64,000 nucleotides of DNA from Raillietiella orientalis (lineage: Eukaryota), in NCBI GenBank assembly GCA_036172245.1, contig JAYWIR010000033.1, positions 806,001-870,000 on the forward strand. The letters are read 5' to 3'. This document shows positions 12,715 to 48,700 of the stretch, piece after piece. The stretch's first letter is position 1, and every line of letters begins with the position of its first letter. The notes under the pieces are model-generated. The model saw nothing but the letters and a program-made list of their open reading frames with translations. It made no database searches and was not told where the DNA came from. The translations under genes and the position numbers were made by a program.

Positions 12715-12784
12715 GGCCCTGCCGGGATTCGAACCCGCGCCCCCTCGTCGTTTCCGCTGTCGAACCCTTCGCCGCCACAGGGCC
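12715..12784 (-). pseudogene. tRNA-like pseudogene or SINE head
   Basis: Perfect 7-bp acceptor stem GGCCCTG/CAGGGCC, a TGGC A-box start and a perfect GGTTCGAATCCC B-box. The D and anticodon arms do not fold. Confidence 0.55.
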
Positions 12785-25600: not shown

Positions 25601-26126
25601 CGTAACCTACAACCAAAAACCCTTGTAATGCTTGAAAAAAATAAAAATCAATCAACCAGGTATGCTATGGAAATAATAGATAAATGCACTTTGAATTGAT
25701 CGGTTAACAAAACAATTACGTCAAAATTGTTGGAAGAAAATCTTGGAACACACAATGAACTAATACAGTTAAGTAATATTGTTGAATTCAATGTCTTGGA
25801 ATCCACAGCACTAAAATTTTCAACGATAATATAAAAGCTTACATGGAAATCACTCATATGCAATCACATGCCGCAAGAGTATGAGATAAAAAATTATGCC
25901 ATTCGTATTCTCGAAGAAGCAACCAACTGACTTACAAGGAAAACTGAAACTATATTTTATTTGTCTATCCCACTATATTTGCTGAATTGACGTGCAACGA
26001 CCGCACTCGGCAAAAGGGTCAGCCAACACTTCCTTGCATGCTCAAACTGTTACAAAGAAATACGTTTTTCAAACACTCACCTTTAAACAACAAACAGAAT
26101 ACAATCAAAAGAAACATCACTGCCAT
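22677..26126 (-). CDS. MGAT4: Alpha-1,3-mannosyl-glycoprotein 4-beta-N-acetylglucosaminyltransferase (GT54, GnT-IV A/B-like), multi-exon; start exon inferred
   Basis: LVFGVPTVKR..SYLFMTLQSL, GDSLERTQWRTKQNLDF, YMHLEDDV, DFCQLGFIG, KPSLFQHVGIYSSLKGKLQKLK, ending IWLKPIS*. A signal-anchor exon MAVMFLLIVFCLLFK at 26126-26081 has a GTGAGT donor. Confidence 0.9.
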
Positions 26127-29850: not shown

Positions 29851-31539
29851 CACTAGATTATCCTCTTCTTCATTTGTGCTTCATCAGACAATCCTGCGTC
29901 CTACGTATACCTGCGTAGCCTTTTATCCATGGAGTCACAGCTCTTCCTTTTGTTTGCCCTGAGGTTACAGCGCAACCATTCCATTCCGCATCGGACTTTC
30001 CATACAAGACCTCATACACGGAGATGAGTGGCTTACAAGAGAGAAACGTCTGCATCTCTTTATAATGCTCCACACACAATCAGTGATGCGTGCATTTCTA
30101 GGAAACCGGATGTAAGTAAGAAACCGGATGCCCGGGCATGATCGTCAGTTATCGTCTTTGCCGAGTAATCATCGCGACGAATGTCTTCTTGCAGAACTTT
30201 CAGTTTTCCAACAGTGAGTGCTTCTTCTCAGCTCACTCCGGTCCTGTTCCTTAATCTCTCCGTGTGATGCTGATCTTGAGGTGTACTTGGGGAGCTTGAG
30301 TTCTCCAGCGATGATCTCCATCACCATGGTCTCCTTCATGTGGCTCTGTGAAATGAGCGTGCAATGTGTGGTTTGGTGGAGAAGCCGACGGCTTCATCGG
30401 CTCACAAAGTTGCTCTGAGCACATTCGATCTGCAAAGATCAGATCCGCCAGCCCCGAGAAAGAAGAACAAATTTTCTGTCCAATCTGCTTTCGTGGTCCT
30501 CTCTTTCACTTCATTTTTACACTCAATGAGGCTTCTAAACCAATTTGGTGACTCGTGTTTGAACCTCCCCCACTGGTGAGACATGCGGGCGCGTTCCCTG
30601 CTTTCTGGATCCTTGTATTACATTACATTAAGTGATCCTGTACATTGCAGACGTGCCTTACTCTCACACGCTTCGGTCCTAAGCATGCAGCTTTGGAATG
30701 GTTCTGCACTCCAGGTCATTCCCAATGGCAACTCTCAGAGTTTACCCGTCCACCCTGAGAAAAAACTCCTAAAAACCATTGGGAAACTCACATTTCCGAG
30801 TCCAATTTACGGTGACGGTGTAACCACTTTCTTGTGTGGTTAATCTTTTTTTTTTTTCAAGTAGGCCAGTAGCGAACTCACGGGGACATCGTGACTACTG
30901 ACCTAGGATGGTGGAATTTCTTTTGGGTTCTTCTGTTTCCCTGTCTTCCTTCCGTCTTTTCTTTCTTTCCTTTTTTTTTTTTCGAGCTCTGTTTTCTTCG
31001 GTTCGGCAAGTTCTCAAGAACCACCTGGAGCCGTTCACTTTAACATGTTCCCGTCGGGATGCACCACGTTGGTACATGAATGGTGTCTCATCGGGCGGGA
31101 TGTACCAGCGGTGGCACAAGCAGATCTAATCACTATTACCGGCCTTTTTTAAAATGAAATCAATAAAAAGCCTATAAATGAACAAAAACTAGGTTGTTGC
31201 ATCAGATATACGTAAGAATTAATATATAAATGTTAATTTCAAACAAATATCTTGAAATTAAAAACAAAAAACAAATGAGGAGAGCTGCTACCTAAAAGAA
31301 AGGCTTACCTAAAATGATATCCACTACTGGGCTCAAAAATATTGTAGCCAAGACAACAAGGAATGCTTTTGCCTTGATCATCTTGCATTAACAAAGAAGA
31401 ATAAACAGGTGAGCCACATAACATCATGTGATTTTATCCAAATCGGCCCCGTCCGATGAAGAAAACTATCAATAACCGAGCCGCCCTACCGCGAGACTAT
31501 GAATTATGGGCCCCAGCATAAACGTGTTAAACACTGTTC

Positions 31540-32154
31540 TCACGTGGGAATCTTCAAGTTGTAGGGGGCAACCCGGAGGGACCACCCTATGAATTCAGGA
31601 AGGTTCCGGAGGAAAGAGTCTTTTCAGCTGAAGCTTAGGAACCTCTTCCTCATTCTCTCCGGAGAGGTTCCCCGGAGGGGACCGCTCCTCATTCCTTGTC
31701 CGAAAAAAAGGGGTCGAAGAAGAACCCTTCAAAGGAGGTTGCCAACACCTCCGAAAGGATCCGCTCCCTTTGAAGAGAATTTCCAAGGGACACTGCCTCG
31801 CCTACCATTCCCTGAAGGGAGCAGCGCGCTTCTTGACCCTCTGGAGAGGACAACGAGGGATGCATCAACCGCTCTGTTTTCACAACAGGAGGGGAACTCT
31901 GAAGAAAACCGACTCTGTGATTCCTGGAAAGACCACGGAGGGTCAGATCCCTGTCAGTCAACAGAAGCATGAGGCTTCCACCGCTGCGGCACTTGAAGAA
32001 GCCAATCAGCGTCATCTTGCGCAGGTGGTGGGGAAACTCGAAATCCACGACGCACCCCCCATTTTCGGCGTCGAGACTTCCCTCCGGGCGGGATTAGAAC
32101 CTGCAACGCACGGTGCTGCGCGCGGAGCGACCGCAGCCACACGGCCGCCGACGC
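31540..32154 (-). mobile_element. tRNA-headed SINE-like element, copy B (tail missing)
   Basis: GCGTCGGCGGCCGTGTGG head, GGTTCTAATCCC, second box GGATTTCGAGTT, GATGACGCTGATTGGC, TTCCAGGAATCA, ATAGGGTGGTCCCTCC. Confidence 0.75.
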
Positions 32155-32694
32155 GGGCGTGGAGGTCAAATCAGTGGTCAAATCAGGATCTCTAGCCAGC
32201 GGATGTAGGTCAGTTCCAGTAGAAGTGAAATTCTCATTTCCTCAGAACTCGTCAAGTCCTCAAGAGTTGAGGTAAACAGGAAACCGTAAGTAAACAACTT
32301 TGGCAATAAAAAAAAAAAAGACTGCTGCTTACCATTCACGAGTTCTTCAGCCAAAAACGGATTCAAGCAAGAGTCGATTATGAGAGCAGTCAGGCACCAG
32401 TGATGAACCCAACCCGATTTATTTCTTTGGAATTTTCTGCGTAATTTTAGCAGGAGTATGGAAACCATGCCACCCTTCTTTCGGAAGTTGTTGCCTGCTG
32501 CTGTCCCTTACCGTTCTTCCTATTTTCACATTTTCGTGATTATGCCCTCAGATCCTGCGTATGATTTTTTCATTATTTCAGTCGCAAAATTCGCCGTCGG
32601 CATCGAACTCCGTGTCGAAGGTCTTACGCCTGAACCACAGGGAAGTTTCTGCTCTTCCTGTTCCGGTCCAAAAACACGTCCACGGGAGCCGAAT

Positions 32695-33576
32695 TATTCT
32701 TTTTTTTGGTTCGCTAAGTACCCCAGAGCCGGTCGCGTGCCTCGCGGCGCACGTGGCTCTTTTTAAACATTAAACACACTGTTTTGTTTCCACGCCTCTC
32801 CGCGCGCGGCAACCCGCAGGGGGGCGTGTAATTCTTCAGTGTAATTCTTCAGGATAGGGGGCACCCCGGGATGGGAGTCCGCCCCATGAATCCAGGAAGG
32901 GCTCGGAGTCCGTTCCCCTCACGCTTGGGGGGGGATCCCCCCCGGACGGGGGGATGAATCGCACGTACCACCCTGGTTGTCGCCGAAGGAGAAAACCGAA
33001 GGGAATCTCCTTACTCATTCTCTCCGGAGGGACACTCCCTCCCTGATGGGGAGGGGCTGTCCTCTCCATTTCAACTTTTCTGCAGGGAACTGGAGAGGAT
33101 CCGCTAGTAAGAATTTCTTCTCCGGAGGGAACCCGCAAGGGAGCCGCTCCTGTTCACTCTGAAGAGAACCCTGAAGGGACGCTTCCGAAACTCAGAAGGG
33201 GCGCTGCAGCTTCCCGCAGGGAATCGCTCTCGCTTGCTTCCTTGTGCACACTGTGAGGAGGCCACGACTCGGAGGGTCCCTCCTGCAACAGGGGGGAATC
33301 CGCTCCTTTAAACAACTGGAGAGGTGCCCGTGAGGGCTCCTGCTCCACCTTGAAACCGGAGGGGTCCCCCGAAGGTCAATTTCCCATTGTTCCGGCTTCA
33401 TCGGGGGCCTCCGGCTTTATCTACCGCCGGTGCCACGCGCGAGTTAGGCCAACGAGCGCCATTGCAGGAGAAAGTCGGAACCCGACGACGCAGTGGTGTC
33501 AGAGTTTCATACCGGAGTATTCGAACCCGCGACGCATGGTGCCACGCGGAAGCCTTAACCACAAGGCCTCCGACGC
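32695..33576 (-). mobile_element. tRNA-headed SINE-like element, copy C
   Basis: GGCCTTGTGGTTAAGGC A-box/D-loop, GGGTTCGAATAC B-box, ATGGCGCTCGTTGGCC, shared body and a GGCTCTGGGGTACTTAGCGAACCAAAAAAA tail. Confidence 0.75.
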
Positions 33577-33899
33577 GGACCGAATTATTCTTCCGCAACC
33601 ACCGTCAGGCAGTCTTTTGGAACCGAGAGAACAGATGTCATAACAGGAGCGGGCAAGCGTAAACTTCCTCATCATGTCTGCGCAAACTGAGTTCAGCTCA
33701 CGGATCAACTTTTCGCTTCTGGGATCACGAGCTTCTGCTGTGCGAACATCGTGGCTGCAGAGCAGTACGATGAGCTCATGGACGGGTCGCAGCGGGTCAT
33801 TGCAGTGGGATCTGATGCCAGTCCATCCCAGTCAATCGTTCCAGCTTGAACTGGGCTTAGGTACTCCATGGTGTGATCATCAGGGGGGGGGGGGGGGGT

Positions 33900-34070
33900 G
33901 ACGTGCCCATGGGGAGTACGACTCATCGCATTTGTAGATGCGAAGAAGGAGTACTGAAAGACTTCAAGGAGAGCTCCGGCAGCAGCGTCAGGGGCGCGAC
34001 GGCTCGTGAGGTACTCAACGAACCCCCCCAAAATGAAAACCCGAAAGAAGAAGGAAAAAAGTATAACAGC
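33900..34070 (+). mobile_element. 3' tail only of the same SINE-like family (copy F)
   Basis: AGGGGCGCGACGGCTCGTGAGGTACTCAACGAACC followed by GAAAACCCGAAAGAAGAA matches the tails of copies D and E. Confidence 0.65.
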
Positions 34071-34959
34071 GAAGACAGAAAAGAACCCAAGAATGCTCTC
34101 CATCATCAAAGGTCGGTGAGGTGGACGCTTCCCACGGAATCCAGAAGATTGGATGCCGTTCAAGAAAAATGCGACGCGATTCACAATCCACCATTTAATC
34201 GCTTCCGGCCCGAACATTGTCAGGGGAGCCATCTTTCCTGGAGTCGTGATTCCGGGGGAAGAGACCAAGGGGAAAAGGAACTGAAGAGAAAGAAGCGAAG
34301 GCGCACCTTCGTCAAGGAACAGCGGCATTCCCAAAACACGAACAACGAAGTGTTTGCAGAGGAGAAGCGAAAAGCGAAACTCTGGATCTCGACAAACCTC
34401 GGCAATCGCTCGTTTCCCAACCGGCTCAAAGTTTCCGGTCTGTCAAGATCCATTGACGCTCTTTTTTTCCAGTTCGATTAAATATTTACTTTCGGGAATT
34501 AAAAGTTGGATTTTTATGGTAGTAAAAAACCCTAATAAAACACCAAAAAGGAATCAATTCGAATTCGAATTATGCACGTTTATGCGTTCAGTGCACCTTC
34601 CCCATGACGCATGCATCAATAAAAAACCAAAAATGACGGGTTCAAAGAAGAAGGGATAAAAGAAGCAGAAGACATCTCAAGATTGGTGTTGAGCTAAATT
34701 AGCTATGTCACGCCTTCAACCATCTGGTGGGACGTGCCACCCGCACCTGCGCATGTATAGATGGGAGAAGTTTCAACCACCTTCGCTGCCTACCCGGAAA
34801 ATGCGGAGCATTAGCGTCTTCATATCTGTGGAGGAGATAATCTTCCCCTCTTCTTCCCCTCTGCACCATCCCGGCTCATTTTCTCTCTGCATCATCCCAA
34901 TTTTCGCGCGTGTCTGCTGCCGGAGTCAGGGTTCGCTACCGTGGGCCGCTGTTAGCCAT

Positions 34960-35330
34960 CAGGGCTGCGGATCTGAGTGTTTGTTTCCCTCGAGGGCGAG
35001 CTTATGCCGCTGCAAGCCGGACTTCGAACCAATAGGGCGCGCGTATGTGCGAAGATTGTCGCCCAAGAGTTCTGTTCGGATACTTACCCCATCTGTCTGG
35101 GGAAGGGGCGTTCGCGCCAGCGCGAGGGTCCAAGCAGAGCACGCGGGTTTTTTTTTTCTCTTTTTTAATAAGGACTCAGTTTCCTTCCGGGCTGTGAAGG
35201 TCTTTCCGAGTTCACTCAGCTGAAGTGAAACGAACTCAGTACTCAGAGTGGATCGACCTGCTCCCGAGTCAGTCTCAGCTCGAGCTGGAAGGCTGTGTGT
35301 GCGCGGGTCAGTGCGGAAGAGCTGACGTCT
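34960..35330 (-). mobile_element. Ty3/Gypsy-type integrase core fossil
   Basis: LFRTDP (~SDNG), ESLLKK, LALARTPLPQTDGVSIRTELLGDNLRT (~L.YR.TP..TG.SP.ELL.GR.LRT). Confidence 0.45.
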
Positions 35331-35419
35331 CCGGTGGCGCCGCCAGGAAAGAGGCGTGAAACACCCTGAGGTCCTGCTTCGACTTCCGTTCGATGTTTCC
35401 GAGCCCGTTTTCAAAAACC

Positions 35420-36095
35420 CTTCTCTTGGGTTCACTGAATACCTCAAGAGCCGTCGCGCCCCTGGCGGCGGCCCACGCAGCTCTTTGACGCTGTTTCACG
35501 CCACCCGAGGGTGCCTGTAATTCGTCAAGGTAGAGGGGGTACCCCGGAAGGGGTCCGCCCAATGAATCCAGGAAGGGCTCGCAGTCCTCTCCTCTCATGC
35601 CTGGGGAGGGATGCCCGGAATGGAGATCACCTTCCACCCTGCTTGTCCCCCCAGGGAATCCCCGCAAAGGAACCGCTCCTGCTTCTTCCTCTGGAGAGAC
35701 CATCGAAGGGATGCTTCCGAACTTTCTCGGAAGGGCGCTCCCCGAAGGGAGCAGCGGGCTTCGCTGCACTCTCTGGAGAGGTGGCGACTCACCTACTCCA
35801 TAGTACGGTCTCCGCTCCTTTGCACAACCGGAGGACAACCCCCACTCCTTGATTCCTGGAAGGACCCCGAAGGGTCGGCTCCCAATCCCGACCACTCATC
35901 GGGGGCATCTCGCTACCTGGATCGCTACCTGTGCCGCGCCCGAAAGAATAGAGGCCAACCAGCGCCATCCTGCGGAAGGAACTCGAACCCACGACGCACC
36001 CCCATTTCTCCGGCCTCGATTCCTGCCGAGTATTCGAACCCGCGACGCCTGGTGCCCCGCGCATAGACCTCAGCAGCCCTCGTGGCCTCCGATGC
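35420..36095 (-). mobile_element. tRNA-headed SINE-like element, copy D
   Basis: Two B-box-like motifs (GGGTTCGAATAC and GGGTTCGAGTTCC), CCGCAGGATGGCGCTGGTTGGCC, CCTTCCAGGAATCAAGGA and a GGCGCGACGGCTCTTGAGGTATTCAGTGAACCC tail. Confidence 0.78.
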
Positions 36096-36339
36096 GGGCG
36101 CTCCTCAGTTTTCGAAAGTTCTCCCGAAGCTCGGGACCGCTCTTCGCGCTTGCACAGCAGATGCAGTCCTCTCGCTGTTCCGGCTCCTCTTGGGAGGCAG
36201 CGTGGCACTGGAAGCTGAGGGCGAGCGCATGTTGAAAAAAAGAGTTGGATTGACGAGCCGTTTTAGTGCTCCTCGAAGTTTGCGACATGAAGTTTTGGTG
36301 ACTGGGATGCAGCGGGAAATGCGAGATGCCGATCGTTCT

Positions 36340-36650
36340 TTTGGATTCCACGGACCGTATTGCCGTCGGTATGCACAAACGTCTGATGCTCTTCTTTGAG
36401 TTCCCAGAAACGCCTTGACGCTTTGGCTTTACTCAACTAGCGAACGTGGGCGCAACGTATGAGACGCTCACATTCTGCCCCTGATCAGGTGCGGTCGCTC
36501 AAACCGACGGTAGTCCAGGTCAGCACCCACGACGAACGTCACGCATTCCACTGTGCCACGAGCGAAGCGGCATCTGCATACAGGACACCAAAGGTGTTCT
36601 TAGTGCGTGACACACGGTGGCTGAGCACAACTTTGCAATGTGTCTTTCGG
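36340..36650 (+). mobile_element. Possible hAT transposase fossil
   Basis: STDRIAVGM (~TDGA..M.G) followed by VRDTRWLS (~TRW.S). Confidence 0.3.
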
Positions 36651-37037
36651 TGACTCTCGAGGCGGCTCTGCTTTTTTTTTTTTCTCCCAAGTTGTCAACC
36701 ATGTTCCCTCGTATCCGTGGACGATGCTCCATGCTGTTCTCCTCCTGCTCACCGGCACGCAGCGATGCCACTTTTCCTTCTTTTTTTTTTCTGCACCGGG
36801 AATTCCTATGCATCATCAGCGGATCCGTGGGATTTGCTCATCGAATCAACCAGGTGCGCCGCGGGGTCGAGGCGATCCCGCCGCACCTGCTGCCGGAGTG
36901 CGACGCCCTCCTGCCCAGATGGGAGAGGCTGGCTGCAGTCCCCTCGCACCCAACAAACACTTCCTCGGGACGCGGCGAGGCATTCCATCTTCCTTCGGGG
37001 GTTCTCCACGGCCGCAGCAGCTGTTGCATTCTTTCCA

Positions 37038-37270
37038 GATTTTTTTCTTCTTTCGGGTTTTCCTTTTTTTTGGTTCTCTGAGTGCTGAAGAACCGTTCGC
37101 CTCCTTGAGGGGGGTTCTCAAAGCTCTTCAACACTATCCACATCATCCGAGGGTGCGTGGAACTCTCTGAGTTGTAGGGGATAGTGCGGGAGGGGACCAC
37201 ACTATGAATGCAGGAAAATTCCGGAGGAAGGAGTCCGTTCCTCTTACGCCTAGCAGAACTCCGAAGGGTA
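37038..37270 (-). mobile_element. 3' part of the SINE-like family (copy E)
   Basis: Shares GGAGTCCGTTCC, CTATGAAT..AGGAA, CCGAGGGTGC and the GAAAACCCGAAAGAAGAA tail with other copies. Confidence 0.65.
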
Positions 37271-37279
37271 CCTTCAGCT

Positions 37280-37570
37280 GGTTCCGTCTCTAGGGTCCCG
37301 ACCCCCCGTTGTCCACTCCGAGTAAAGTGACATGGGAAACCTCCCTGTTAACATTATAGACCCCCATCTCCGAGGGTCCATCGATAGCCACGCCCCCGGA
37401 AACGCTTGTTCCCGCCCAACAAAACACTCAGGATGCAGATTCTTCAGGAGGGGAGAAGTTGACTCCTCCTGACTTCTCCAGGAGAAACTTGCCGGCAGTT
37501 TCCAAGATGACTGGGAAGGAGAGAGCAGCAGCAGCCTCGCGATGAGAACCGGGAAAGACCTGCCTCATGG
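37280..37570 (-). mobile_element. L1/Tx1 APE-endonuclease fragment
   Basis: ILET (~LQET), SGGVAI, VDNGGR (~D..GR). Confidence 0.4.
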
Positions 37571-37591
37571 TCTTCGTTCCTCCCATGAGTT

Positions 37592-37960
37592 TACACCCGT
37601 GTGCGCCGGAGCATTTATTTCTCTAATAAACAAAACTGTGTAGGGCTGTAGGCCCTACAGCGTCAGAAAGTGTTCGGAACTTACCGAGTCTCCGGCACGC
37701 AGGCCGGCGAGGTGCGACTCGGCAGTGGGGGGGGGGGGAGGGGACAAGCAAAAAGAAAAATAAAAGAAACACTATTTAAAAAAGCAGGTGGGTTGGGGAA
37801 GGGATCACGTCCACCGCAGGTCATCCTCTACATCCTTTCCAGGATTCCGGCAAGTTCCATCTGCATGCGTCCCAGATGGGGTCAACTGACTGCCGTCCTT
37901 AGAAAGTGCAGGTTTCCGGTGGCTTCTCCTATGAGGGGCCACCTGAAAAGACCTACGTGC
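37592..37960 (-). mobile_element. Tx1/L1-like 3' end (ORF2 tail plus 3' UTR)
   Basis: The 3' UTR is homologous to 42930-43122, 40895-41080 and 46751-46960, and ends AATAAATGCTCCGGCGCACACGGGTG. Confidence 0.7.
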
Positions 37961-37977
37961 CACCGAGTCTCGAGAAG

Positions 37978-38055
37978 CGCAGGTTTGGCTCAGCGGCGAA
38001 AGTGCGCGGTGCCGTGTGCGAAGGCGAGGGTTCGAATCTCGGAGGCACTCGCCCC
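37978..38055 (+). pseudogene. tRNA-derived SINE head of a second family, or tRNA pseudogene
   Basis: A-box TGGCTCAGCGG and B-box GGTTCGAATCT at tRNA spacing; acceptor stem not intact. Confidence 0.5.
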
Positions 38056-38239
38056 TGAGACAAAGCCCTCGCCTCGGCAGAAAGCCCTCCCCCATTCCAC
38101 CCCTTCCATTCTTGACGCAAGCTTGTGAGGAGCGAGTAATCCTCCACGGTGGAAGCTGCGGAAATCTCTTCCCCTCTTTGTGCGATTCTGAATAAGGGAG
38201 GAGGAGGACGTCGTCGGCTTCTTTTTTTTTTCATTCTTC

Positions 38240-38526
38240 CCTTTCTCACCCCGAAGAGAACCGACTTCTTGGTTCCCGGAAGGGCCCCTCGAAGGGTCAA
38301 CTTCCAAATACCAGACAATCAGCGGGGGCGTCTGGTTTTCTGCTTCCACCATCACCGCACCCGAAGTTTACAGGGCCAACTAGCGTCATCCTACGTGGAC
38401 GACTGAAAACCGTCGTGGGTTTCCAGTCGCCTCTTATTTTCGACGTCGAGACTTTTCCCCGGGTGGGACTCGAACCCGCAAGGCTTGGTGCCGTGCGCGG
38501 AGCGACCGCAGGCACACTGCCGCCGC
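38240..38526 (-). mobile_element. 5' part of the SINE-like family (copy G)
   Basis: GCGGTCGCTCCGCGCACGGCACC...GGGTTCGAGTCCCACCCGG...AGTCTCGACGTCGAAAAT...GGATGACGCTAGTTGGCC; closest to copy B. Confidence 0.72.
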
Positions 38527-39138
38527 TTCAGACAGCGTCTGCATCGTGGTAGCCATCCCATGCCCGGAAACGCCCCAGGAAGTTTGGGAAGTCATTCTTG
38601 TATTTGATTCCGTGGCGCGACGAGAGTCCATCTCGACCTCGCTGGCAGGGGAGACATTGACCACATGGTGCAGGGACTGGGAAATTTGAAAAAACTAGAC
38701 GGAACGTGTGCCGGGTGAGCAACCCGTATCCCCCCCTCCCTTTTCCTCAGAAAAGAACAGTTGTTCATCCACTCATCCACTCTTTCCTTTCGTTCTGCAC
38801 GTTCAGCCCGCCCCGAGCGGGAACCACGCTTGAGAGGTTCCCCTGTCTCACTTGCTAGAAGCTCGCAGGCATTCCTGAGCGACCGGGTCACGCCGCCAAT
38901 CTTCTGCATCCGGAGGCCCTCCGGGGATGTGGAGTTCGTGCATGAACTCGATCATGCTACTCAGAAACACGTCTTGTCATTCCACAAGGAACGGGAAAGA
39001 CCTGCGTTTTCTGGTGTAAGGTGGACACCAGCAACCCACCTTCCCGTGACGTTTCCGCCGTTTCCATAAGGAGGAAGATTGGAGAAACCTCTCGAAGAGG
39101 TGTTCTTTCATCCTGTTTCGCAGAGGCGTTCATCGTAA

Positions 39139-39222
39139 ACATATATATATACATATATATTTATTTATTTACATTGAAACAGTCATTATATACACATACA
39201 CATATGTATATACACCTATATA
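39139..39222. repeat. (TA)n/(CA)n microsatellite adjoining the mariner TIR
   Basis: Seen directly. Confidence 0.8.
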
Positions 39223-40020
39223 TTGGATTGGTGCAAAAGAAATTGCGGTTTCCACGCAACGAGTACAAAGACGCACGTATCCGTTGAAAATCACATGTGG
39301 TAATCAAAATGACGACCATTGGCCTGCACGCGTTTCTCCCAACGGGAAACGGGTTTGTTTACTCCTGCAAGATCGAATCCCGGAGTCCTGGTATCAACGG
39401 GTTCATCATCGAGCTGATGCTTTGATCACCTTGGGAACTGCTCGAGTGCTTAAAAAGATGACAATCTGTCGGAGACAGGTGCGGAGGATGGGGTGGGCGA
39501 GGCGAGGTTTCCTTGTTTGAAGTCATTCGTGACACGGGTGGTCTGGCGTGTTGTCACGAAGAAGAGCTGGTCCTCTTCGATCGACTAATGCTGGCCGTAA
39601 GCGATGCAGCTCCTCGTGCATCCTTTCGGTTTCCTAGCAATATGTTTCCGCTGCTGTGGTTTTACCAGGATTTAACAAGTCGTGGCGAAGGATGCCACTC
39701 ACAGGGACCGCAATCTTTTTCGGCTTAGGAAACGCTTCGGTGCTTCTCCCCGGTCCAGCCACTGTGTGGTAGGGAATCCACCTTCCGTCACGTGTGGCAA
39801 TGCCATCCAGGAAGGGGCCATCTTGGTCACTCAAAAGAAACGCAGAACAGACTGCGTATGGCCGAATTGCTCGATTCGCTCATGCGGCGCCCATTGATCC
39901 ATTGAGCTTTCTTGCTTTTCCAATCAGTCTCAAATGTCGGACAGCTGTTGCATGATCAACACGGAGTTCTTCTGCCGCCTCTCGAGTTATTTTCTACGCA
40001 GCTTCAGTAACGGTTCTTAA
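39221..40020 (-). mobile_element. Hsmar1-like (cecropia subfamily) mariner fossil, 5' end lost; one TIR at 39223-39252 with flanking TA
   Basis: TA+TTGGATTGGTGCAAAAGAAATTGCGGTT matches the Hsmar1/MADE1 TIR. Transposase remnants: TREAAEEL.VDHATAVRHL..IGK, WAPHE, PFLDGIATRDGRWIPY, QWLDRGEAPK, LNPGKT, RPALVDRRGP.LLRDN, HLSPTDCHLFKH, GVNKPVSRWEKRVQANGRHFD. Confidence 0.92.
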
Positions 40021-40039
40021 ATCATCTTGAATCTGAAGG

Positions 40040-40890
40040 ACGTCCACGACCCTCCTCCATTTTCGTTTCCATCCGTTTCCATTTCCTTCCAGGAGAGTAC
40101 AGGTCTCTTCTGGGTCCAGGGTGGCCTCTGCCGCCTGTTCCCCCAACTCACACCCTGGAGGGCAGCCTTGTTCACTGGAGTGATGGGGGGACTTACCACC
40201 AGACAGTGTGTCGGCTTACGAGGACCATCTTCTGTTGCTGCTCCCCATGTCCACTTCGGCTCCTGCACTCGAAAGCTTCTTCGGGCTGCTTAGCCGTAGG
40301 ACGGGTCTGGAGATGAACAAGACGAAATGTTCTATCGTTCCAGTTGGTGCGGTGTGGGCAAAATCAAAGATCTCCGGATTCGGGTTGACAGGATTTGAGA
40401 TCTGATTAGGCAACCTTTGGAGATCGTTTCGACATACGGATGATTTCAATGGCCACAAATCCCTCGCAACTCTCCACCTTCGCACCGCTTCGCTTTGTCT
40501 TTCGGTGTTTCCGAAGAAGCATTATTGCTAGTTGAAATATTTTGGCGTCTTCTTTCTGCGTTCCAGGCCGCTGCTATTCCGCGAAGACGGCAGAAGACTG
40601 CGGGGGACGCGGGTGGTGTCAGTGCTTCATGCACAATAGGAGGCGTCTCGAAATGCCCCCAGGCTCTCCAGCTGGGATTCTGAGCGTCGTCCTTAGGAGA
40701 TCCTAAAGGGTTCGGATGGCGGCGCGGTCCAGCAGCAGATGCGGTAGTGTCTCCCGCACCTGATTGCACTCCGGAGTCCAGCTTCCTGCCATTTGAGGGG
40801 GAGGATGCCACTGTTTCGGAACTATGGAGGCCACTTCAGGTTCTAGAAAAATTCCAAGCAGCTCACCCTAGCAAGTATGCGGTCTGTATG
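40040..40890 (+). mobile_element. Tx1/L1 RT fragment
   Basis: PGWPLPP (~QGCPLSP), SAYEDH (~AYADD), TGLEMNKTK (~SGL.IN..K). Confidence 0.65.
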
Positions 40891-40894
40891 GTTA

Positions 40895-41750
40895 TTGACA
40901 CCTGATCACGTCGGAGCGTTTATTTATTAAAAACAAACACAGAGAACAGTAGCAAGATGCGTGATGGTACCAAGAACGGGTTCGAGGGCTGGCAGCAGAG
41001 GGAGAGAGGGACAAACAAAAAGAAAAATACAAAAAAAAAATACAAAAAAATTGGGAGGATGGGGGGCTTCGGGAAGGAATCACTGTGTGCTGGAGGGTGC
41101 CCTCTGCATCCTTGTAAGATGCCGGAAAGTTCCTGTCTAAAGATACCCAGATGGGACCATCCTGACGCTATCCTCACGAAGAGGAAAGCAAAGTAGATGG
41201 CGCCTCGATCGTTGTGGCCTCCTCTGGCGCTTCTTTATCCAGATACGATACTGCGTAGGCGGAACAGCGCTGCTAGGGGTGCCAGCTTGATGGTGCCGCT
41301 CTGGAAGAGGCTCTGAAGATCGTCAGTCCTCGTGGATCCGCAAGGACGCGGCAGAGTGCTCCCATAGGGGACGGAGGGCAACACAATCCATGACCAGGTG
41401 CGGGAGGGACTCTCTCTCGCTGCACCTGCCGCAGTTAGGACTTGCAGTCCCCCGGGTCCAATAGTATCTGCGAGCGTTGCACGGGAGTCCCCAGTACAAC
41501 AGCTGAGCTTTCCCTGTGTGGGTGGAACACTCGAGTTCGCAATGTCCGTAAGCTCCCGTGCTCTCCGCGCACCCGGAAGCTTCTTCCTTGCTGCAACCCC
41601 CAAAAAGAAACTTCCTTCGTCAGGTTTCCTGTCTCCGCTCACGCAGCACACTCTCTTTTTGGTGAGATAATATTCTGTGCAGATGCCTCACATCCAGGCT
41701 GCCTGCACGGAATATCAATTCGCCGAAAAGACACCCAATTTCTTGTTGCA
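40895..41750 (-). mobile_element. 5'-truncated Tx1/L1 copy (zinc knuckle plus 3' UTR)
   Basis: LLYWGLPCNARRYYWTRGTASPNCGRCSERESLPHLVMDC (CCHC, zf-RVT type); family 3' UTR ending AATAAACGCTCCGACGTGATCAGGTG. Confidence 0.8.
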
Positions 41751-41759
41751 TGAGTAGAG

Positions 41760-43122
41760 AAACCTGCCAAGCTGGCCACAGATGGAAATCCTTTTAGGGG
41801 TCTTTTGTTTCCCCTGCTTTCCTTCCTGCTTTTGGAGAGAATGGAGCTGCAGCTCCAGTTTTGGACACTTGTCCTCGTGTCAAACCTCTGGAACACCATC
41901 TGGTGCTAACCTGCATGTCTTCTCGTCCAGCAAGCTACCGGCAGCGTGGGACTCGAGTCTTTCCTTGCGCTCCGTCCACTCAGTCTTATCCACGGCGGAT
42001 TTCAACCTGCGGCAGGCGGCCACGCTGACCAGGAAAAACGGATGGATCTCGTGCTGTACTGTGAACGCTAGCGTCTGGCTGCAGGAAACCGTTCTCACGT
42101 TAGCGAGGATCCAGGAGCCAAGGAAGGAAGAGGTGCGACGTTTCCTGTGCGTGCGCAACAACAACTGCACGTTTGGGAGATCCTGGAAGATCCCGTGAAG
42201 AGTGCATGGGCAAGAAGAACCTCCCTCGCCGCAGCGCCACCCTCCCTTAGGGAACACATGGACAGCAGCCTTACGGCTAGATGGGAGGTTACTGTGGAAA
42301 CCTCCGGAAGGAGGAAAGGACTGGGCGAGTGGACGACGGGCCAGCTCACCGACACTGTGACCCCGATTGCTCGACCTTGTAGACTTTTGCACGGGCATGC
42401 TACTGGGTATTCCGGAGGAAGGCCTGCAGTGGCTCCCGGTGCTCATCGACTCCCGCATCCTCCCACTGAAGTGGCAAAAGTCGGCGTTGATGCTGCTGTA
42501 TTGGGGCCTCCCGTGCAACGCCCACCGGCATCATTGGATAAGAGGGGGAGGGGGGATCCAAACTGTGGAAGGTGCGGGGAGCGGAGAATCCCTCCCGCAC
42601 CTCCTAGTGGACTGTCTTGCCCTCCGGTCCCTTTAAGAACGCTTTGGTGAGACCCTTGAAACCCCTGGCGGCAACCCCAGATTGGTGTGATGCGGCTCCT
42701 CTTAGCACGAGAAGCCCTTAAAGAACTTTGCTGCCTTCGTGGGATCGTGGAGGCGTGGAGAGAAGCCAACGACAGGGACAGCATCCACTTTGCTGCGCTT
42801 TTCACGGATAGCGGTCAGATGGCATCACCTGGATAATAGCATGAAGTAAGACCTTGCAGGCATCCTCCAAAGGATACAGAGGATCTCCCCCAGAAGGCTG
42901 TGATCCCTTCCCGTAACTCCCGAAACTGTCTCATTTTTGTTTTGTTTATTTTTCTTTTTGTTTGGCCCTCCCCTCTGCTGCCATGGTTCACCTCACCGGT
43001 CTGAGAATCGGTAACACGGCAGGTTAGATCTACAGAGAGGACGTGGTTGGAACACCGGTCCAACTACTAAAACTATGAATGCCTATTTTATTTTAAATAA
43101 GTTCCCCGGTGAACCTGGGTGA
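41760..43122 (+). mobile_element. 5'-truncated Tx1/L1 copy (post-RT region, zinc knuckle, 3' UTR)
   Basis: LLYWGLPCNAHRHHW...PNCGRCGE/ESLPHLLVDC; 3' UTR ending AATAAGTTCCCCGGTGAACCTGGGTGAAAAA. Confidence 0.8.
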
Positions 43123-43399
43123 AAAACCAGCTCATAGTAGTACCTAGTGGTGAACGAACTGTGGGAAGAGCAACTGGTCCCAGTGATTCCTTGCTTTCTT
43201 CCCGTTGCATGGGAGACGGCATAGTGGCAGCCGCCACTGGATGCGGCTGTTTCTCTACATCCAACAAATCAAGCACCGTGAACGTTCCAAGAACCGTGGC
43301 AGCTACGCGTGGGCCCAGGTAATGAGGAGGGACGTCCGGGAGCTCTTTTCCGCCGAAAAGTGAAAACCAGGAGGTGGGCTGGCCATAGCTGCCAGCCGC

Positions 43400-44500
43400 T
43401 ACGAGATCCGAAATGTGAACCTGAGGGCGGCTGGATAGACACTACCGAGGGGGGCAACCCAACCTCGGAGTAACTCCTGCTGTTTTACCAAGGATGAATG
43501 CTGAGTGACTCGAGGGTGGAGTGCTGGACAGGGAACAGCCAACACGAGTTCTGCAAGGCATACGGGGTCGGGGAAACACAACCAGCTCCGTGTCCTCAGC
43601 TGCTCAACTCCGAGCCGGGCTTAGGCAACGCAGAAGGCGGTGACCGACTTGCAGGCGATCCCCAAGACCGAGGGAGATTTCGGCGGGAATGTTTGGAGGG
43701 AACGGGAACAATACAATCGAATGCCCATATAACCCCATTCTTCAATGGTCCCATCGCCCTCTTCATCACCAGCGTTGTGCATAAGAAACGCAAGAATGCG
43801 AAACACCGGAGCAACATTGCCTCCTGTCATCATTCTGCAAGAATTTTCACGGTGGGAGATAGGCGTCAGGATGTGTGTTGAAGTACCCATCTGGGCATGC
43901 CGCTGCATCTTGAAGAAGATCGAGGAAGTTACCCAATTGAGTGGAATGCCCACCAGCCTGTCCCAAAAGAAAAACGGAACATGAACCACGACTGTAACAC
44001 TTGGTGTCCACAACTTCAGGTGCGGAGCACTTAGCAGAGTGCCTGCAAATGTGCGCGGTTGTTTGGGATCGCGGGCAGGCCATGTGATATGAATTCACCC
44101 CTCGCCGCTGGTCGGAAATGGGTACAAAATCAGTAGGTCCGATCCCTTGGAATCCTGCAGGATTTCACATCGAGGAAGATTCTCGAAAGGATCAGCTCAG
44201 ATTCGATTCCGGGCTGGTCTGACCAGCTCGACCGCGTTTACCCTCACAGCCGCATCCACGGGCTGCCATCGGGTGGACCACACTGTGGAGCACCTTAGGC
44301 GGCGGACCCCGTGGCGTTCCCTGCCGCTCACCTTCCCTTGGTCTTCGAACGCAAGCTGAGAATCCTGGCAGGACGGGGCCGTTACCGTGAAGGAACCTCC
44401 CAAGAGCTTTTTTTGGCAACCGCGTTGAGAGAGGCTCTGTTTTGAACAACATAGGCGACGACGGTAGCGCTCGCCCCAGGTCATGTGTGAAACAAAAATC
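43400..44500 (-). mobile_element. Possible L1/Tx1 ORF1 fossil
   Basis: VVVHVPFFFW, LKNGV.. ..LP and degenerate GH..C knuckle-like remnants in L1/Tx1 ORF1 order; frameshifted. Confidence 0.3.
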
Positions 44501-45719
44501 AGGAGTTTATTTCACTTGAGCGGTTCATTACTGTCTTTGGGTAATACGTGAAGCAAAGGTCAAAAGTGCTTTCACTTGAAGATACTTTAGGTCTCCGATG
44601 GGGACTAAAAGTGTTTTCGAGTTTAGCTACGAATTACTTCGGTCTAATCACAAAGTACACAACTCTGAAACACTCCAAAGATATGTTGGTTCACCAGGGG
44701 AATTCTGTTCCAGATTAGTGGGTGAAGGATTCTGCACTTGGTAAATTTCGAAATTTCCATCGTCTCTGAATTAAAATTTTAATTATATAATTCAACGCCT
44801 GACATGCCATGTCACGCCAGCTTTCAGGTCTTCAGCTTTTAGGTATGTGAGAGTTTCAGGAGCTTTATAAACACGAAAACGGGAGGTAAACTCAGCTCGC
44901 CAGTAGGAAACAGCGAAGAAAACAAGGTCGGGGGGAATGGCAATAGATAAAAAAACTCAGCAGAGCAAAGAGCACATTTCGTGCGATCGTTATGGTGATG
45001 GATTCCGTTCGATTTCCTTTACCTTGGCACACTTTTCGTGGGTTTCGACTATCTACATTGTGCTGAAGAGATAGCTCGAAAGGAGCCGCTTTGAGAATAA
45101 AAGAATAAAAAAAAAAAAAAAAAACACTTTGCCACAGACAGCCAGAAAAACATGCCGAGGCCACAATAAAAATGCTAGCCTCCATCTTTGTTTTCCGTGA
45201 TGCTGAGTCTCGAGATTTGAATCCCTTGCCGAAAATTGCTACACACACACACACCTGCATCCGTCACCTACTGAATATGCTCGCTAACATGGGGGGTGAA
45301 AGCTTGGGAAAAAGGTAACACAACGAGACAGTCATACATTAAAAACTTTGTGAGGTTTTCAGCAAAGCGGATTTGCAGGAAGACAGTGTTTTCTGTTGAT
45401 GAGTTCCTCTTACAGCTGTTCTCATAGCCCCTTGCCTGTTTCGAGGGTGTCGATACTTTAGTAAGAACGTACTGTATCAGTATATACATATACCTATATC
45501 GTGAGCATGACGAGAAGCTGGACGAGGAAAAAAAAAAAATCTGCATTGAAAGAATAGGATTCGGAGACACTTCTGCCAAACATCATTGTTTTGATATCTT
45601 TATTTTGCGGTAGAGATTTAAGATAGAGGCTGCGGTACGTAGGGAATACATTTTAGGGGGGGAAGGGGGAGAGATGAAGTCGGCGAATGCTACTTGGATC
45701 GGTTTTCGAAGTTAAAAAT

Positions 45720-48700
45720 TGACAAAACCGTCCAAGGAGACCTGGATGCTATCACCGATTCCCAAGTTTGTGGCTTGTCCTAACGAGAGCAGGCATCTGA
45801 ACGTCCCAGAAGACATCATCAAGCCAAACTCGGCATGCAAACCACACCTTTGCACTTTGGATCCCTGTTCCCTGTCCCGTTCGAGAATTTTCTTCTCCCT
45901 CATTCGCGAGCTCACTTCTGCCTGAGGTAGCGGCGCGAACAGTGAACGCGGTGAGTGAGGCCACTTGAAAAAGTGGATGCGAAGCGCTGGAAGATGAGAG
46001 CTCGGTATGATGGCATCCCGAGGTGCGACAAAGACCTCGCATATGATTTCCTTCGGGAGACTTAAGCTACCATGCGTTCTGTGGGCTCTCTGGAATGCTC
46101 CGATTTCATGCAGAGAACCACGGAATGAACGAATGCCAAGTGCTCGAGGGGGCGTGCCGACGATGAGGGCGCTCACCGTATACAGAAGTGAAAGGAGAAT
46201 GACAGGAAAAAATGCTTTCTTAGCCAGCGGCCGCTTGCCCTGTTTGCGAAAGTATACGAAACGTTCCGTCTTCTTGCATGCAACTCTGTGAAGACGGATG
46301 CACAAAGGACAGCGAGGTGCCCTCCGAACCCTTTAAGCCTCGGCGATCTTCGAATGGAATGCCGAGCTGTCGCCCTAAGAAGCCCTTTTTTCCATCCACT
46401 TGAAAATGGTATAGTCGACCCTTTTCCTAAGACGTAGGTCACCTTGTACAGCTAGCAGGACTTGAGTGTCTTCGTCTTCGTCGAACAAATCTGCTACGTT
46501 CTCTTCGAAGTCCCATGTGTGCACTTTCGCTTCCAAATTCCCTTGGATGTTTCGGAGTGTCCTGTCATTTGATCTTGTCGCTTACGCACACCCATCCTTG
46601 CATTGCACAAATAATTCTGCCACAGCATGGGAGTGGAACAATCGTCCACATTACCACCACACTGCTGCCTTCATTGTGACGATGTGGCACATTACTTCGA
46701 TTGAATAATCTGAACGACTGCACGCATGCAGATCCATTCCCTGTGCTGTTTATCACCCGGGTGCGCCGGGGCGTTTATTAAAAACTATCCGGTAACAGAG
46801 TTCCTGGACAAAGGGGAAAACAAGATACGAAGGGGGTGGGATCCCCGACACGCAGGTCGGTATGGCGAAAGTCCGGAACGGGAGGAAGAGGACCACAAAT
46901 AGACTACTATAAAAAAATAAAAATAAAAATATGGTGGGCAGGGGACAGGGGTCTTTGGTGAGTCCGTTCCTTCCTTTCAAAACCGGCGATGGATGCCGGC
47001 GATCTCTCTCCTTACGTCCTGCGGCAGATGGGCCCACTCGGCAGCCGACGACATGCTTGTGCTGGCTAATCCGCTGGGCTGACGAAGGATGGCCAGCTTC
47101 TCCAACACTCGGTGGGCCTCGGCGATGGCGCGGGTGCAACACACGATTGCAACGACAGCACCCAAAGACAGGCCGCCTGGTGTGAAGAAGCGGCGCATCA
47201 AGTCTCTTGCGGTGTCCCCCTGGTGCAGGAGAGCTGAGGCCAGCCTCCGCCAAAGTCCCAGAAGGGCACCGCAGTCCAAGAGCAGGTGCGGGAGCGTTTC
47301 CACTTCCCCGCACCGCTTACAGTTTGGGGAGACAACTCCCCCGGAAACACGGTTCGTCCGCTGGTTGGAGTGAAAATCCCAATGCACCAGCATGATGACG
47401 TCCTGCTTCCACGAAAGGGGGAACACAGAAGTGTTCAAACAGGAGGGAGGGACCACAAGTTCTTCGGAGGGCACACTCAAGTGTTCACTCCACCGAAGTA
47501 GTCCCTTCGGAACGTGGCGAGGCGTGGCGGCGTCTGCCAGATCTCAAGTCCTCCAGCCGCCAATAGGTCGTGTTGTTCCTGCAATGGTGCAGGCGACCTC
47601 CCATCTCGCCGGTTCGCAGCTGTCATTTCTTGCCCTGAGGGCTGACAGTGCGCCGGCGAGGGGGGTGAGGGCCAGGCCGGTCCACTTCTCCTGGCTGCTG
47701 CAGACCTCATCCACCGTGCAGTACGGGGAGAGGTGAACGCAACGGAGTTCCAGGAGGGAAATATCCTGGTGCTTTGCCCAGCCATGCAACGGTTCCTGCA
47801 GCCAGGCTTGAAAGTTCGTTGGGCGGCAGGAGATCCATTCCCTGTGCTGTTCGGGAGCGATTATCTTCCGTAACCCCTATCCTGTGTGGGGTCTTTTCCT
47901 GAATGTCATCTGCAAGTGCCAGGGAATGAGGATCAGCAGTGCTGCGTCCGATTCTGCCCATGAAACGAGAAAGCCGTGTCCCTCGCGAAAATGATTCAGC
48001 GGAAACGAAGAGAGCACCGGCGCTGCTTCCAGAAATGCCACCCTTTCCAAAATCTTCCCCATTCTTCCCCACTCCACTTTCTCTCTCCCATAGCATGAGA
48101 TTGACCGTGTGCAGGCAGAGATCCGTCTCCAACTCAGCTCGCTTCCAGCTAATCAACATGTACCATCAGTGCGATTTTCTAGTTGAGGCAATCACGAATT
48201 GGCGCCTCCAACGCGACTTTTTGAAATCACTGAATCGGAAACCTTAGCTGGACGCTCGCGAAGCACAACCAGACAGACAATACGGAGTAGTTTCTGGCCT
48301 CTGGTGCATCGTTCGCATTTCCATTACCCACTAGGTGACATCCCACTTGAAAAAGAAACCGAAGCGGACATCTGGCCCTCCCGCATGGACATGACGGCAA
48401 CCCTAGTTCTTCCTCTCCACGCTCATTTTTATCTATTTGTAAGTATGTTTTTTTGTTTTTTGTGTTTTTCCATAAAATGAACCACCCTGTGCAACCGGGT
48501 TCGAAACAGATATCCGGCTGTTGTTCATCTTCACACTGCTGCCATTGAAAAGCAAAGTTCCTAAACGGAAGGCAATTGGAGTTAAAAATGGCCGTAGCAT
48601 GGAGTCATAATAGTAGGACTTGACCATCACGTCTGCCAGAGATATCCATCTACCCGACACATCCACGTCAATGACAGAATAGATTGAACTGTGGTGATGA

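What the first reader, a model, noticed from the sequence alone, without database searches (positions are those of the whole stretch)
39221..40020. Dead mariner decaying predominantly by A>G / T>C, CpG-creating substitutions
Seen: compared with the remembered Hsmar1-type consensus, changes at conserved residues run AT->GC. WVPHEL>WAPHER, IVTCDEKWILY>IATRDGRWIPY, HDN>RDN, VNRKG>VDRRG, IHY>LRH, TIT>TTA, KLIS>KPVS, KCV>KRV, EVA>EAA, TVV>TAV. Many create a CpG (TG>CG, CA>CG). Established: neutral animal TE fossils usually drift to AT and lose CpG. Inference: a strong local AT->GC force acts here, such as extreme GC-biased gene conversion, a repair bias, or an adenine-targeting mutational or TE-defence process. 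It would behave like an inverse of RIP or methyl-CpG decay.
Basis: partly seen in the sequence, partly recalled or inferred. Interest (0 to 1): 0.8.

Follow-up and report, generated by a model that had tools for sequence, protein, structure and literature searches.

The report
Mariner fossil drifting strongly toward GC
A dead mariner transposon in an arthropod genome has changed its A/T bases to G/C about eight times more readily than the reverse, most likely because it lies in a GC-rich stretch between genes where a recombination-linked repair bias favours G/C, not because a defence system targets it.

Summary
The fossil lies on the minus strand: a 3' ITR at 39221 and a transposase remnant at 39303-40115, with 8 frameshifts and 2 in-frame stops.

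I compared it with 19 intact relatives recovered from metagenomes. At sites at least 85% conserved in those relatives:
- A/T>G/C: 53 of 183 A/T sites changed.
- G/C>A/T: 4 of 113 G/C sites changed (Fisher 7e-9).
- At invariant sites the counts are 34/110 against 1/60.

The same pipeline on 20 other decayed copies gave per-site ratios of 0.10-1.99, against 8.2 here.

Two parts of the claim do not hold:
- **CpG creation is not enriched.** 14 of 53 changes create a CpG, which is what neighbouring bases predict (about 27%).
- **The bias is not adenine-specific.** A>C and T>G transversions share it.

The copy sits in a 20-kb block of 52% GC with CpG near expectation. Arthropod gene bodies on either side are 32-33% GC and CpG-depleted. 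The most likely cause is a regional fixation bias toward G/C, namely GC-biased gene conversion in unmethylated intergenic DNA, as described in honeybee. That makes this a new member of a known kind. Without the genome or polymorphism data I cannot exclude a regional mutation bias or a repeat-targeted process.

The parts
39221..39251 (-). 3' inverted terminal repeat of the mariner fossil, with its outer end at 39221
   Evidence: Read directly. It closely resembles the ITRs of full-length relatives L005 and L006. The 19-base ITR core occurs once in the window, so no 5' partner exists.
39303..40115 (-). Decayed transposase coding remnant, residues 37-340 of 340, with 8 frameshifts and 2 in-frame stops
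   Evidence: tblastn with P0004 gave E 4e-28 in three frames. The frameshift-aware alignment scored 518. Pfam Transposase_1 gave E 1e-4 at 22.5 bits, below the cut-off of 24. HMMER found 361 relatives, the best at 43% identity.
40123..40149 (-). Probable remnant of transposase residues 16-24. The 5' end and 5' ITR cannot be identified.
   Evidence: It is collinear with the main alignment, but its score of 28 lies within the range of 20 shuffles, 22-34.
28001..48500 (.). GC-rich, CpG-replete intergenic block that holds the fossil
   Evidence: GC 0.517 and CpG observed/expected 0.84. Of 118 ORFs of at least 75 aa, only one gave a Pfam hit, a weak zf-RVT match.
6001..14300 (.). Second GC-rich, CpG-replete intergenic block
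   Evidence: GC 0.611 and CpG observed/expected 1.07. Single 1-kb bins reach 0.69 GC.
14301..27800 (-). AT-rich, CpG-depleted gene bodies of a GLYR1-like dehydrogenase and MGAT4. The short stretch between them is 40% GC with CpG at expectation.
   Evidence: GC is 0.32-0.33 and CpG observed/expected 0.46 in the gene bodies, against 0.40 and 1.04 at 20001-22800. Exon GC3 is 0.17-0.34.
46980..47543 (-). Possible tail of a LINE fossil in the same GC-rich block
   Evidence: Pfam zf-RVT gave E 0.0098 at 17 bits, below the cut-off of 27.5.

Best explanation
The copy is a long-dead DD34D mariner. Since it died it has evolved under a regional bias toward G/C that acts on the whole intergenic block, not on the transposon as such.

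The most likely mechanism is GC-biased gene conversion. Meiotic recombination is concentrated in unmethylated intergenic DNA. Mismatches in the recombination heteroduplex are repaired toward G or C, so A/T>G/C changes fix often and G/C>A/T changes rarely. Because the DNA is not methylated, newly made CpGs persist.

**Shown:** the direction, size and evenness of the bias; the GC-rich, CpG-replete setting; and the AT-rich, CpG-depleted gene bodies nearby.

**Inferred:** that the bias acts at fixation and not at mutation; that recombination causes it; and that the CpG pattern reflects germline methylation.
For: **Size of the bias.**
- A/T>G/C 53/183 against G/C>A/T 4/113 at sites at least 85% conserved in 19 intact relatives, and 34/110 against 1/60 at invariant sites.
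- Amino-acid parsimony agrees: 81.5 of 291.3 A/T sites against 27.2 of 238.7 G/C sites, Fisher 1.6e-6.
- 20 other decayed copies put through the same pipeline gave ratios of 0.10-1.99. Copies on AT-rich contigs gave 0.10-0.39.

**Shape of the bias.**
- All four A/T>G/C types are raised, on both strands: A>G 17, T>C 25, A>C 9, T>G 2, against C>T 2, G>A 2 and no C>A or G>T.
- The changes are spread from 39311 to 40103, with no CpG preference.

**Composition of the copy.**
- GC1 is 0.626 and GC2 is 0.479. Both lie outside the ranges of the 21 intact relatives, 0.44-0.57 and 0.34-0.39.

**Regional setting.**
- The flanks are 0.54-0.55 GC, and the block is 20 kb long.
- GC and CpG observed/expected correlate across the 64 one-kb bins (Spearman 0.62).
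- Host exon GC3 is 0.17-0.41, so the genome's baseline is AT-rich.
- Decay of 70% of CpGs would remove only about 5 points of GC, not 20-30.

**Plausibility of the strength.**
- If mutation is 2-4-fold AT-biased, the observed ratio implies a population-scaled conversion strength B of about 2.8-4.3.
- In honeybee, average B is 5.7 and exceeds 15 where GC is above 0.55. Germline-methylated genes there have low crossover rates (PMC4406589, abstract and section 10 read).
Against: - No recombination, polymorphism or methylation data exist for this locus. No genome is held and no sequencing run was listed.
- The same-genome family consensus could not be built. Ancestral states come from relatives in other organisms, which share only 52-62% nucleotide identity with this copy.
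- Third codon positions are saturated (35-45% identity), so all polarised sites are effectively first and second positions.
- GC3 of the copy is 0.44, which is not above the range of its relatives, 0.25-0.57.
- The implied equilibrium GC of 0.73-0.95 exceeds the present GC of the block (0.52). Either the block is not at equilibrium or the estimate is too high.
- In honeybee the bias is restricted to transitions and favours CpG. Here transversions share it and CpG is not favoured.
- TE-dense DNA is often poor in recombination.
- This is one copy in one window.
Confidence: 0.6

Rival explanations
1. A regional mutation bias, not a fixation bias. Unmethylated, untranscribed intergenic DNA would receive more A/T>G/C than G/C>A/T mutations, for example through error-prone repair synthesis or a damaged nucleotide pool, with no role for recombination.
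For: - Substitution counts cannot separate mutation from fixation.
- The GC-rich blocks coincide with DNA that shows no CpG depletion.
- There is a hint of strand asymmetry: T>C 25/83 against A>G 17/100 (p 0.051), and A>C 9/100 against T>G 2/83 (p 0.11).
- A>G next to a 3' G is rare, 1 of 29. This was not corrected for multiple testing.
Against: - It would need a per-site mutation ratio of 8-18 toward G/C. As I recall, measured nuclear germline spectra are AT-biased, and honeybee rare variants are 80% AT alleles.
- Host exon GC3 of 0.17-0.41, a few kb away, shows an AT-rich baseline.
- The near absence of G/C>A/T changes (4/113) is easier to explain by failure to fix than by failure to mutate.
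Confidence: 0.2
2. A repeat- or TE-targeted editing process that converts A/T to G/C, an 'inverse RIP', created both the decay pattern of this copy and the GC-rich blocks. On this view the blocks are old TE graveyards.
For: - The GC-rich blocks hold the only TE remains I could recognise: the mariner, a possible LINE tail and a repeated 90-base unit.
- The gene bodies are AT-rich.
- The direction and strength of the bias are unusual for a TE fossil.
Against: - Four substitution types on both strands share the bias, including transversions, which a single deaminase does not produce.
- There is no dinucleotide context and no clustering.
- The 5' neighbours of A>G are A 14, G 7, T 4 and C 4, and a 3' G is depleted. 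As I recall, that is the opposite of ADAR preference.
- A DNA transposon has no RNA intermediate that could carry RNA edits into the genome.
- GC declines gradually over 2-4 kb at block edges into gene ends, which fits a distance effect better than a target boundary.
- 117 of 118 long ORFs in the block have no TE domain. Very old debris would also look like this.
Confidence: 0.06
3. The bias is partly an artefact of polarisation. The master element that entered this genome, or a non-autonomous lineage that kept amplifying, already carried many of the G/C states.
For: - No same-genome consensus could be built.
- Relatives are only 52-62% identical at nucleotide level.
- At less conserved sites the contrast weakens, 76/255 against 20/184.
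- Some metagenome subfamilies give ratios up to 1.99.
Against: - The contrast grows as conservation rises, and is 34/110 against 1/60 at sites invariant in all 19 intact relatives.
- The changes hit hallmark motifs next to the catalytic aspartates and come with 8 frameshifts and 2 stops.
- GC2 of 0.479 is far outside the 0.34-0.39 of every intact relative.
Confidence: 0.07

Closest known systems
GC-biased gene conversion in the honeybee genome (Wallberg, Glemin and Webster 2015, PMC4406589; abstract and section 10 read)
   Same: - The host is an arthropod with an AT-rich baseline.
- There is a strong bias toward G/C where GC is high.
- CpGs persist in that DNA.
- Methylated, CpG-depleted genes sit apart from the GC-rich DNA.
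- The required strength, B of about 3-4, lies within the range reported there.
   Different: - In honeybee the bias is reported for transitions only (B 6.47 against 0.03 for transversions) and favours CpG-creating changes. Here transversions to G/C are also in excess (11 against 0) and CpG creation is at expectation.
- The honeybee evidence comes from allele frequencies and a recombination map. The evidence here is the substitutions in a single fossil.
- The host here is not a honeybee. The best MGAT4 match among the 120 listed is 58%.
Stable recombination hotspots at unmethylated promoter-like DNA in species without PRDM9 control (PMC11161765 and PMC11703093, search listing only; dog and bird examples recalled)
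   Same: A persistent hotspot in unmethylated DNA would raise GC locally over long periods, which would produce kb-scale GC-rich, CpG-rich blocks next to AT-rich DNA.
   Different: The blocks here are 8 and 20 kb long and are made of anonymous, TE-bearing intergenic DNA, not promoters. Hotspot activity was not tested.
Estimating regional substitution bias from old repeats against their consensus, as done for human Alu and chicken CR1
   Same: The method and logic are the same: dead copies serve as neutral reporters of local A/T>G/C against G/C>A/T rates and of equilibrium GC.
   Different: Those studies use thousands of copies and a same-genome consensus. This is one copy polarised on relatives from other organisms.
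Repeat-induced point mutation (RIP) in fungi (recalled)
   Same: TE-bearing regions differ sharply in composition from gene regions.
   Different: RIP goes the opposite way (C>T), involves transitions only, has a strong CpA context and targets duplicated DNA. None of those features is seen here.

Membership tests
mariner (Tc1/mariner superfamily, DD34D transposase, Pfam Transposase_1) | Transposase homology across the protein | tested here: met
   tblastn gave E 4e-28. HMMER found 361 relatives at E up to 0.001. The alignment covers residues 37-340. Pfam alone falls just under its cut-off, 22.5 against 24 bits.
mariner (Tc1/mariner superfamily, DD34D transposase, Pfam Transposase_1) | Catalytic D, D, D with 34 residues between the last two | tested here: met
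   Consensus positions 152, 244 and 279 are aspartates and are absent from the list of changed residues. Their neighbours have changed: C151R, E153G, H243R and Y280C.
mariner (Tc1/mariner superfamily, DD34D transposase, Pfam Transposase_1) | Pair of terminal inverted repeats of about 30 bases | tested here: inconclusive
   The 3' ITR is present and resembles those of L005 and L006. No 5' partner was found (1 match only).
mariner (Tc1/mariner superfamily, DD34D transposase, Pfam Transposase_1) | TA target-site duplication | tested here: inconclusive
   TA does abut the 3' ITR, but it lies within a TA-rich low-complexity run at 39130-39220. The 5' end is missing.
GC-biased gene conversion tract | Excess of A/T>G/C over G/C>A/T substitutions per site | tested here: met
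   53/183 against 4/113. Controls gave 0.10-1.99 against 8.2 here.
GC-biased gene conversion tract | Acts on all sequence in the region, whatever its origin, and on both strands | tested here: inconclusive
   The flanks and the whole 20-kb block are GC-rich, and both strands are affected. No second sequence in the block could be polarised.
GC-biased gene conversion tract | Association with recombination rate, and derived G/C alleles at higher frequency than derived A/T alleles | not testable with these tools
   No genome is held and no sequencing run was listed.
ADAR-type or other adenine-deaminase hypermutation | Only A>G on one strand, in clusters, with a typical neighbour preference | tested here: not met
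   A>C and T>G also occur (11 of 53). A>G (17) and T>C (25) are both present. The changes are evenly spread. A 3' G follows only 1 of 29 A>G changes. The ADAR preference itself is recalled.
RIP-like repeat-targeted mutation | Fixed dinucleotide context and restriction to duplicated DNA | tested here: not met
   No context preference was seen. The window holds only one copy of this element.

The most novel reading that the evidence does not exclude
The GC-rich, CpG-replete intergenic blocks are TE graveyards remodelled by a repeat- or chromatin-targeted process that drives A/T to G/C. This would be a mirror image of fungal RIP, operating in an arthropod germline, and the mariner fossil would be a readout of that process and not of recombination.
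Probability: 0.06. Interest if true: 0.85.

Novelty: new member of a known kind. Interest (0 to 1): 0.4.

Why it matters
If the cause is biased gene conversion, this locus shows how strongly it can reshape an arthropod genome at kilobase scale. Gene bodies at 32-33% GC sit next to intergenic blocks at 52-61% GC. A dead transposon records a per-site bias of 8-fold or more, which implies an equilibrium GC of 0.7-0.9.

Three practical consequences follow:
- Dating TE fossils by divergence in such genomes would be distorted.
- Repeat finders built on AT-rich consensus sequences would miss old copies. The word-index search missed this one.
- GC-rich blocks could serve as a sequence-only proxy for long-term recombination and for lack of germline methylation.

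None of this opens a new field. It extends a pattern described in honeybee to another arthropod and differs from honeybee in detail.

Tried and rejected
**Resources that were not available**
- Whole genome: none is held.
- Sequencing runs: none was listed.
- Earlier notes of this scan: none by place or by sequence.

**Searches that found nothing useful**
- A word-index protein search with the read-through fragment found no hit at E up to 0.001 among 2311 candidates. The exhaustive HMMER search then found relatives.
- The ESM Atlas search on a host exon gave only generic dehydrogenase clusters and no useful taxon.
- Rfam gave 0 matches, tRNA search 0 genes, and tandem-repeat search 0 arrays.
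- PMC9214253 (passages read) did not use the TE-consensus method I was looking for.

**Candidates rejected**
- A second mariner fragment at 63690-63815, in AT-rich DNA, would have been an internal control. It scored 57, against up to 53 in 10 shuffles, so I rejected it.
- The 5' ITR and N-terminus were not recovered. DNA alignments to five relatives gave only short, weak matches, and the protein match for residues 16-24 is within shuffle range.

**Analyses that could not be done**
- Third codon positions could not be polarised because they are saturated.
- I did not try to polarise the possible LINE tail. It is too weak and no set of relatives was in hand.

**Explanations considered and set aside**
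- Contamination or a chimeric assembly as the source of the GC-rich blocks. The blocks carry animal-type TE remains, grade into the flanks over kilobases and are bracketed by arthropod genes.
- CpG decay alone as the cause of the AT-rich gene bodies. It accounts for only about 5 points of GC.

Full report
**What is there**

The stretch holds a mariner fossil on the minus strand. Its 3' inverted terminal repeat starts at 39221. It closely resembles the ITRs of full-length 1.28-1.30-kb relatives recovered from metagenomes. ITR pairs were found in 14 of the 21 loci with intact reading frames.

A read-through translation of 39499-40020 contains 4 stops in 174 codons. It scores just under Pfam's cut-off for Transposase_1, at E 1e-4 and 22.5 against 24 bits. 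The word-index protein search found nothing. The exhaustive HMMER search found 361 proteins at E up to 0.001, the best at E 4.9e-24 and 43% identity.

tblastn with an intact 340-aa relative (P0004) gave three collinear pieces in three frames, E 4e-28. I built a consensus from the 52 hits that are at least 48% identical to P0004 over at least 100 residues. A frameshift-aware protein-to-DNA alignment with that consensus placed residues 37-340 at 40115-39303. It has 265 aligned codons, 149 of them identical, with 8 frameshifts and 2 in-frame stops.

A collinear but statistically weak match to residues 16-24 lies at 40149-40123. The 5' ITR is gone, since its core occurs only once in the window. 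The three catalytic aspartates survive, but their neighbours have changed. Named relatives come from a nematode and an amphipod.

**Is the bias real?**

Yes.

By amino-acid parsimony over all aligned codons:
- A/T>G/C changes number 84.5 and G/C>A/T changes 32.3.
- In columns at least 70% conserved the counts are 39 and 5.2.
- Per site at codon positions 1-2, that is 81.5 of 291.3 A/T sites against 27.2 of 238.7 G/C sites (Fisher 1.6e-6).

For a nucleotide-level test I fetched 41 related loci from metagenome contigs. Of these, 21 have reading frames of at least 325 aa. I dropped L002 and L012, which give the same identity to the window copy as L001 and L011, which left 19. The results are:

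| Conservation in the 19 relatives | A/T>G/C | G/C>A/T |
|---|---|---|
| at least 70% | 76/255 | 20/184 |
| at least 85% | 53/183 | 4/113 (Fisher 7e-9) |
| invariant | 34/110 | 1/60 |

The implied equilibrium GC is 0.73-0.95.

As a control for bias in the method, I ran the same pipeline on all 20 non-intact metagenome copies. Per-site ratios ranged from 0.10 to 1.99. The copies on AT-rich contigs (L032, L033, L037, L038) gave 0.10-0.39, which is the usual drift toward AT. The window copy gives 8.2.

The copy's composition agrees. GC1 is 0.626 and GC2 is 0.479, against 0.44-0.57 and 0.34-0.39 in the 21 intact relatives.

**Limits of the test**

- Relatives share only 52-62% nucleotide identity with this copy, and third positions are saturated at 35-45%. 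The polarised sites are therefore nearly all first and second codon positions.
- GC3 of the copy is 0.44, which is not above the range of its relatives, 0.25-0.57.
- No consensus from the same genome could be made, because no genome is held.

**What the bias looks like**

At sites at least 85% conserved the changes are A>G 17, T>C 25, A>C 9, T>G 2, C>T 2, G>A 2, G>C 3, T>A 3 and A>T 1.
Transversions toward G/C are also in excess, 11 against 0.
- Both strands are affected. The strand differences are borderline: T>C against A>G p 0.051, and A>C against T>G p 0.11.
- The changes are spread evenly from 39311 to 40103.
- CpG creation is not enriched. 14 of 53 changes create a CpG and 16 of 53 create a GpC. 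Among unchanged A/T sites, 27% have a 3' G and 28% have a 5' C.
- The copy's CpG observed/expected is 0.99, so CpGs are simply not being lost.

**Setting**

The window is a mosaic:

| Region | GC | CpG observed/expected |
|---|---|---|
| 6001-14300 | 0.611 | 1.07 |
| 14301-20000 | 0.333 | 0.46 |
| 22801-27800 | 0.319 | 0.46 |
| 28001-48500 (holds the fossil) | 0.517 | 0.84 |
| 48501-64000 | 0.335 | 0.59 |

The three AT-rich regions also show TpG/CpA excess. GC and CpG observed/expected correlate across the 64 one-kb bins (Spearman 0.62).

The AT-rich parts hold the genes: S-adenosylmethionine decarboxylase, a GLYR1-like dehydrogenase, MGAT4, a tetraspanin-like frame and a WD40 exon. Their exon GC3 is 0.17-0.41.

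In the 20-kb GC-rich block, 118 ORFs of at least 75 aa gave only one weak zf-RVT hit.

The MGAT4 exon's named matches among the 120 listed are all arthropods, with a maximum of 58% identity. The host is therefore an arthropod without a close relative in that protein collection.

In insects, intergenic DNA and TEs are generally depleted of methylation (PMC7343188, abstract start seen in the search listing). Strongly CpG-depleted gene bodies in a 33%-GC arthropod genome have been described (PMC11706791, passages read).

**Mechanism**

The bias is regional, covers all A/T>G/C types, and comes with a near absence of G/C>A/T changes in a genome whose baseline is AT-rich. CpG decay cannot explain the contrast between compartments, because losing 70% of CpGs removes only about 5 points of GC.

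The best fit is GC-biased gene conversion concentrated in unmethylated intergenic DNA. With a 2-4-fold AT-biased mutation input, the observed ratio needs a population-scaled strength B of about 2.8-4.3.

In honeybee, average B is 5.7 and exceeds 15 where GC is above 0.55. Germline-methylated genes there have reduced crossover rates, and rare variants are 80% AT alleles (PMC4406589, abstract and section 10). Two details differ. In honeybee the bias is confined to transitions and favours CpG. Neither holds here.

**Rivals**

- **Regional mutation bias** cannot be excluded from substitutions alone. It would need a mutation spectrum 8-18-fold toward G/C, unlike any nuclear germline spectrum I recall.
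- **A TE-targeted 'inverse RIP' or adenine-deaminase process** is disfavoured by several observations. The bias includes transversions, affects both strands and has no context or clustering. A DNA transposon also has no RNA intermediate. GC declines gradually at block edges into gene ends. If the blocks are wholly ancient TE debris, though, the regional pattern alone does not exclude it.
- **A polarisation artefact** is unlikely, because the contrast sharpens as conservation rises.

**Verdict**

This is best filed as a new member of a known kind, a gBGC-type GC-enriching regime in an arthropod. The evidence rests on one copy, and no population or recombination data were available.

Noticed in passing
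window 32061-32150 and 38436-38525: Two 90-base copies of a repeat, 83% identical, both in the GC-rich block. They contain a stretch that looks like the reverse complement of a tRNA T-arm, so this may be a tRNA-derived SINE. ARAGORN and Rfam report nothing there.
   Followed up: partly
window 1-64000: The window is a kilobase-scale mosaic. Gene bodies have 32-33% GC, CpG observed/expected 0.46-0.59 and TpG/CpA excess. Intergenic blocks have 52-61% GC and CpG near expectation. GC falls off over 2-4 kb at block edges.
   Followed up: partly
window 39130-39220 and about 11560-11720: Short TA/CA-rich low-complexity runs are embedded in GC-rich DNA, and one abuts the mariner's 3' ITR. They may be young slippage products. 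The tandem-repeat finder did not report them at score 80.
   Followed up: no
window 46980-47543, minus strand: A 188-aa open frame with a weak zf-RVT match (E 0.0098) may be the tail of a LINE fossil. No RT domain was detected upstream among the ORFs scanned.
   Followed up: partly
window 39303-40115, minus strand: Among 29 A>G changes at sites at least 70% conserved, only 1 has a 3' G, although 30% of unchanged A/T sites do. This is a possible neighbour effect, not corrected for multiple testing.
   Followed up: no
window 763-2296, 14929-17033, 23083-24436, 51848-52387, 53307-53768: Host genes are compact, with short introns: SAM decarboxylase, a GLYR1-like dehydrogenase, MGAT4, a tetraspanin-like frame and a WD40 protein. 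The MGAT4 exon is at most 58% identical to any listed protein, and every named hit is an arthropod.
   Followed up: partly
loci L001-L041: Soil and other metagenomes hold many complete 1.28-1.30-kb mariners of this subfamily with intact reading frames (21 of 41 loci). The subfamily therefore appears to be currently or recently active in small invertebrates.
   Followed up: partly
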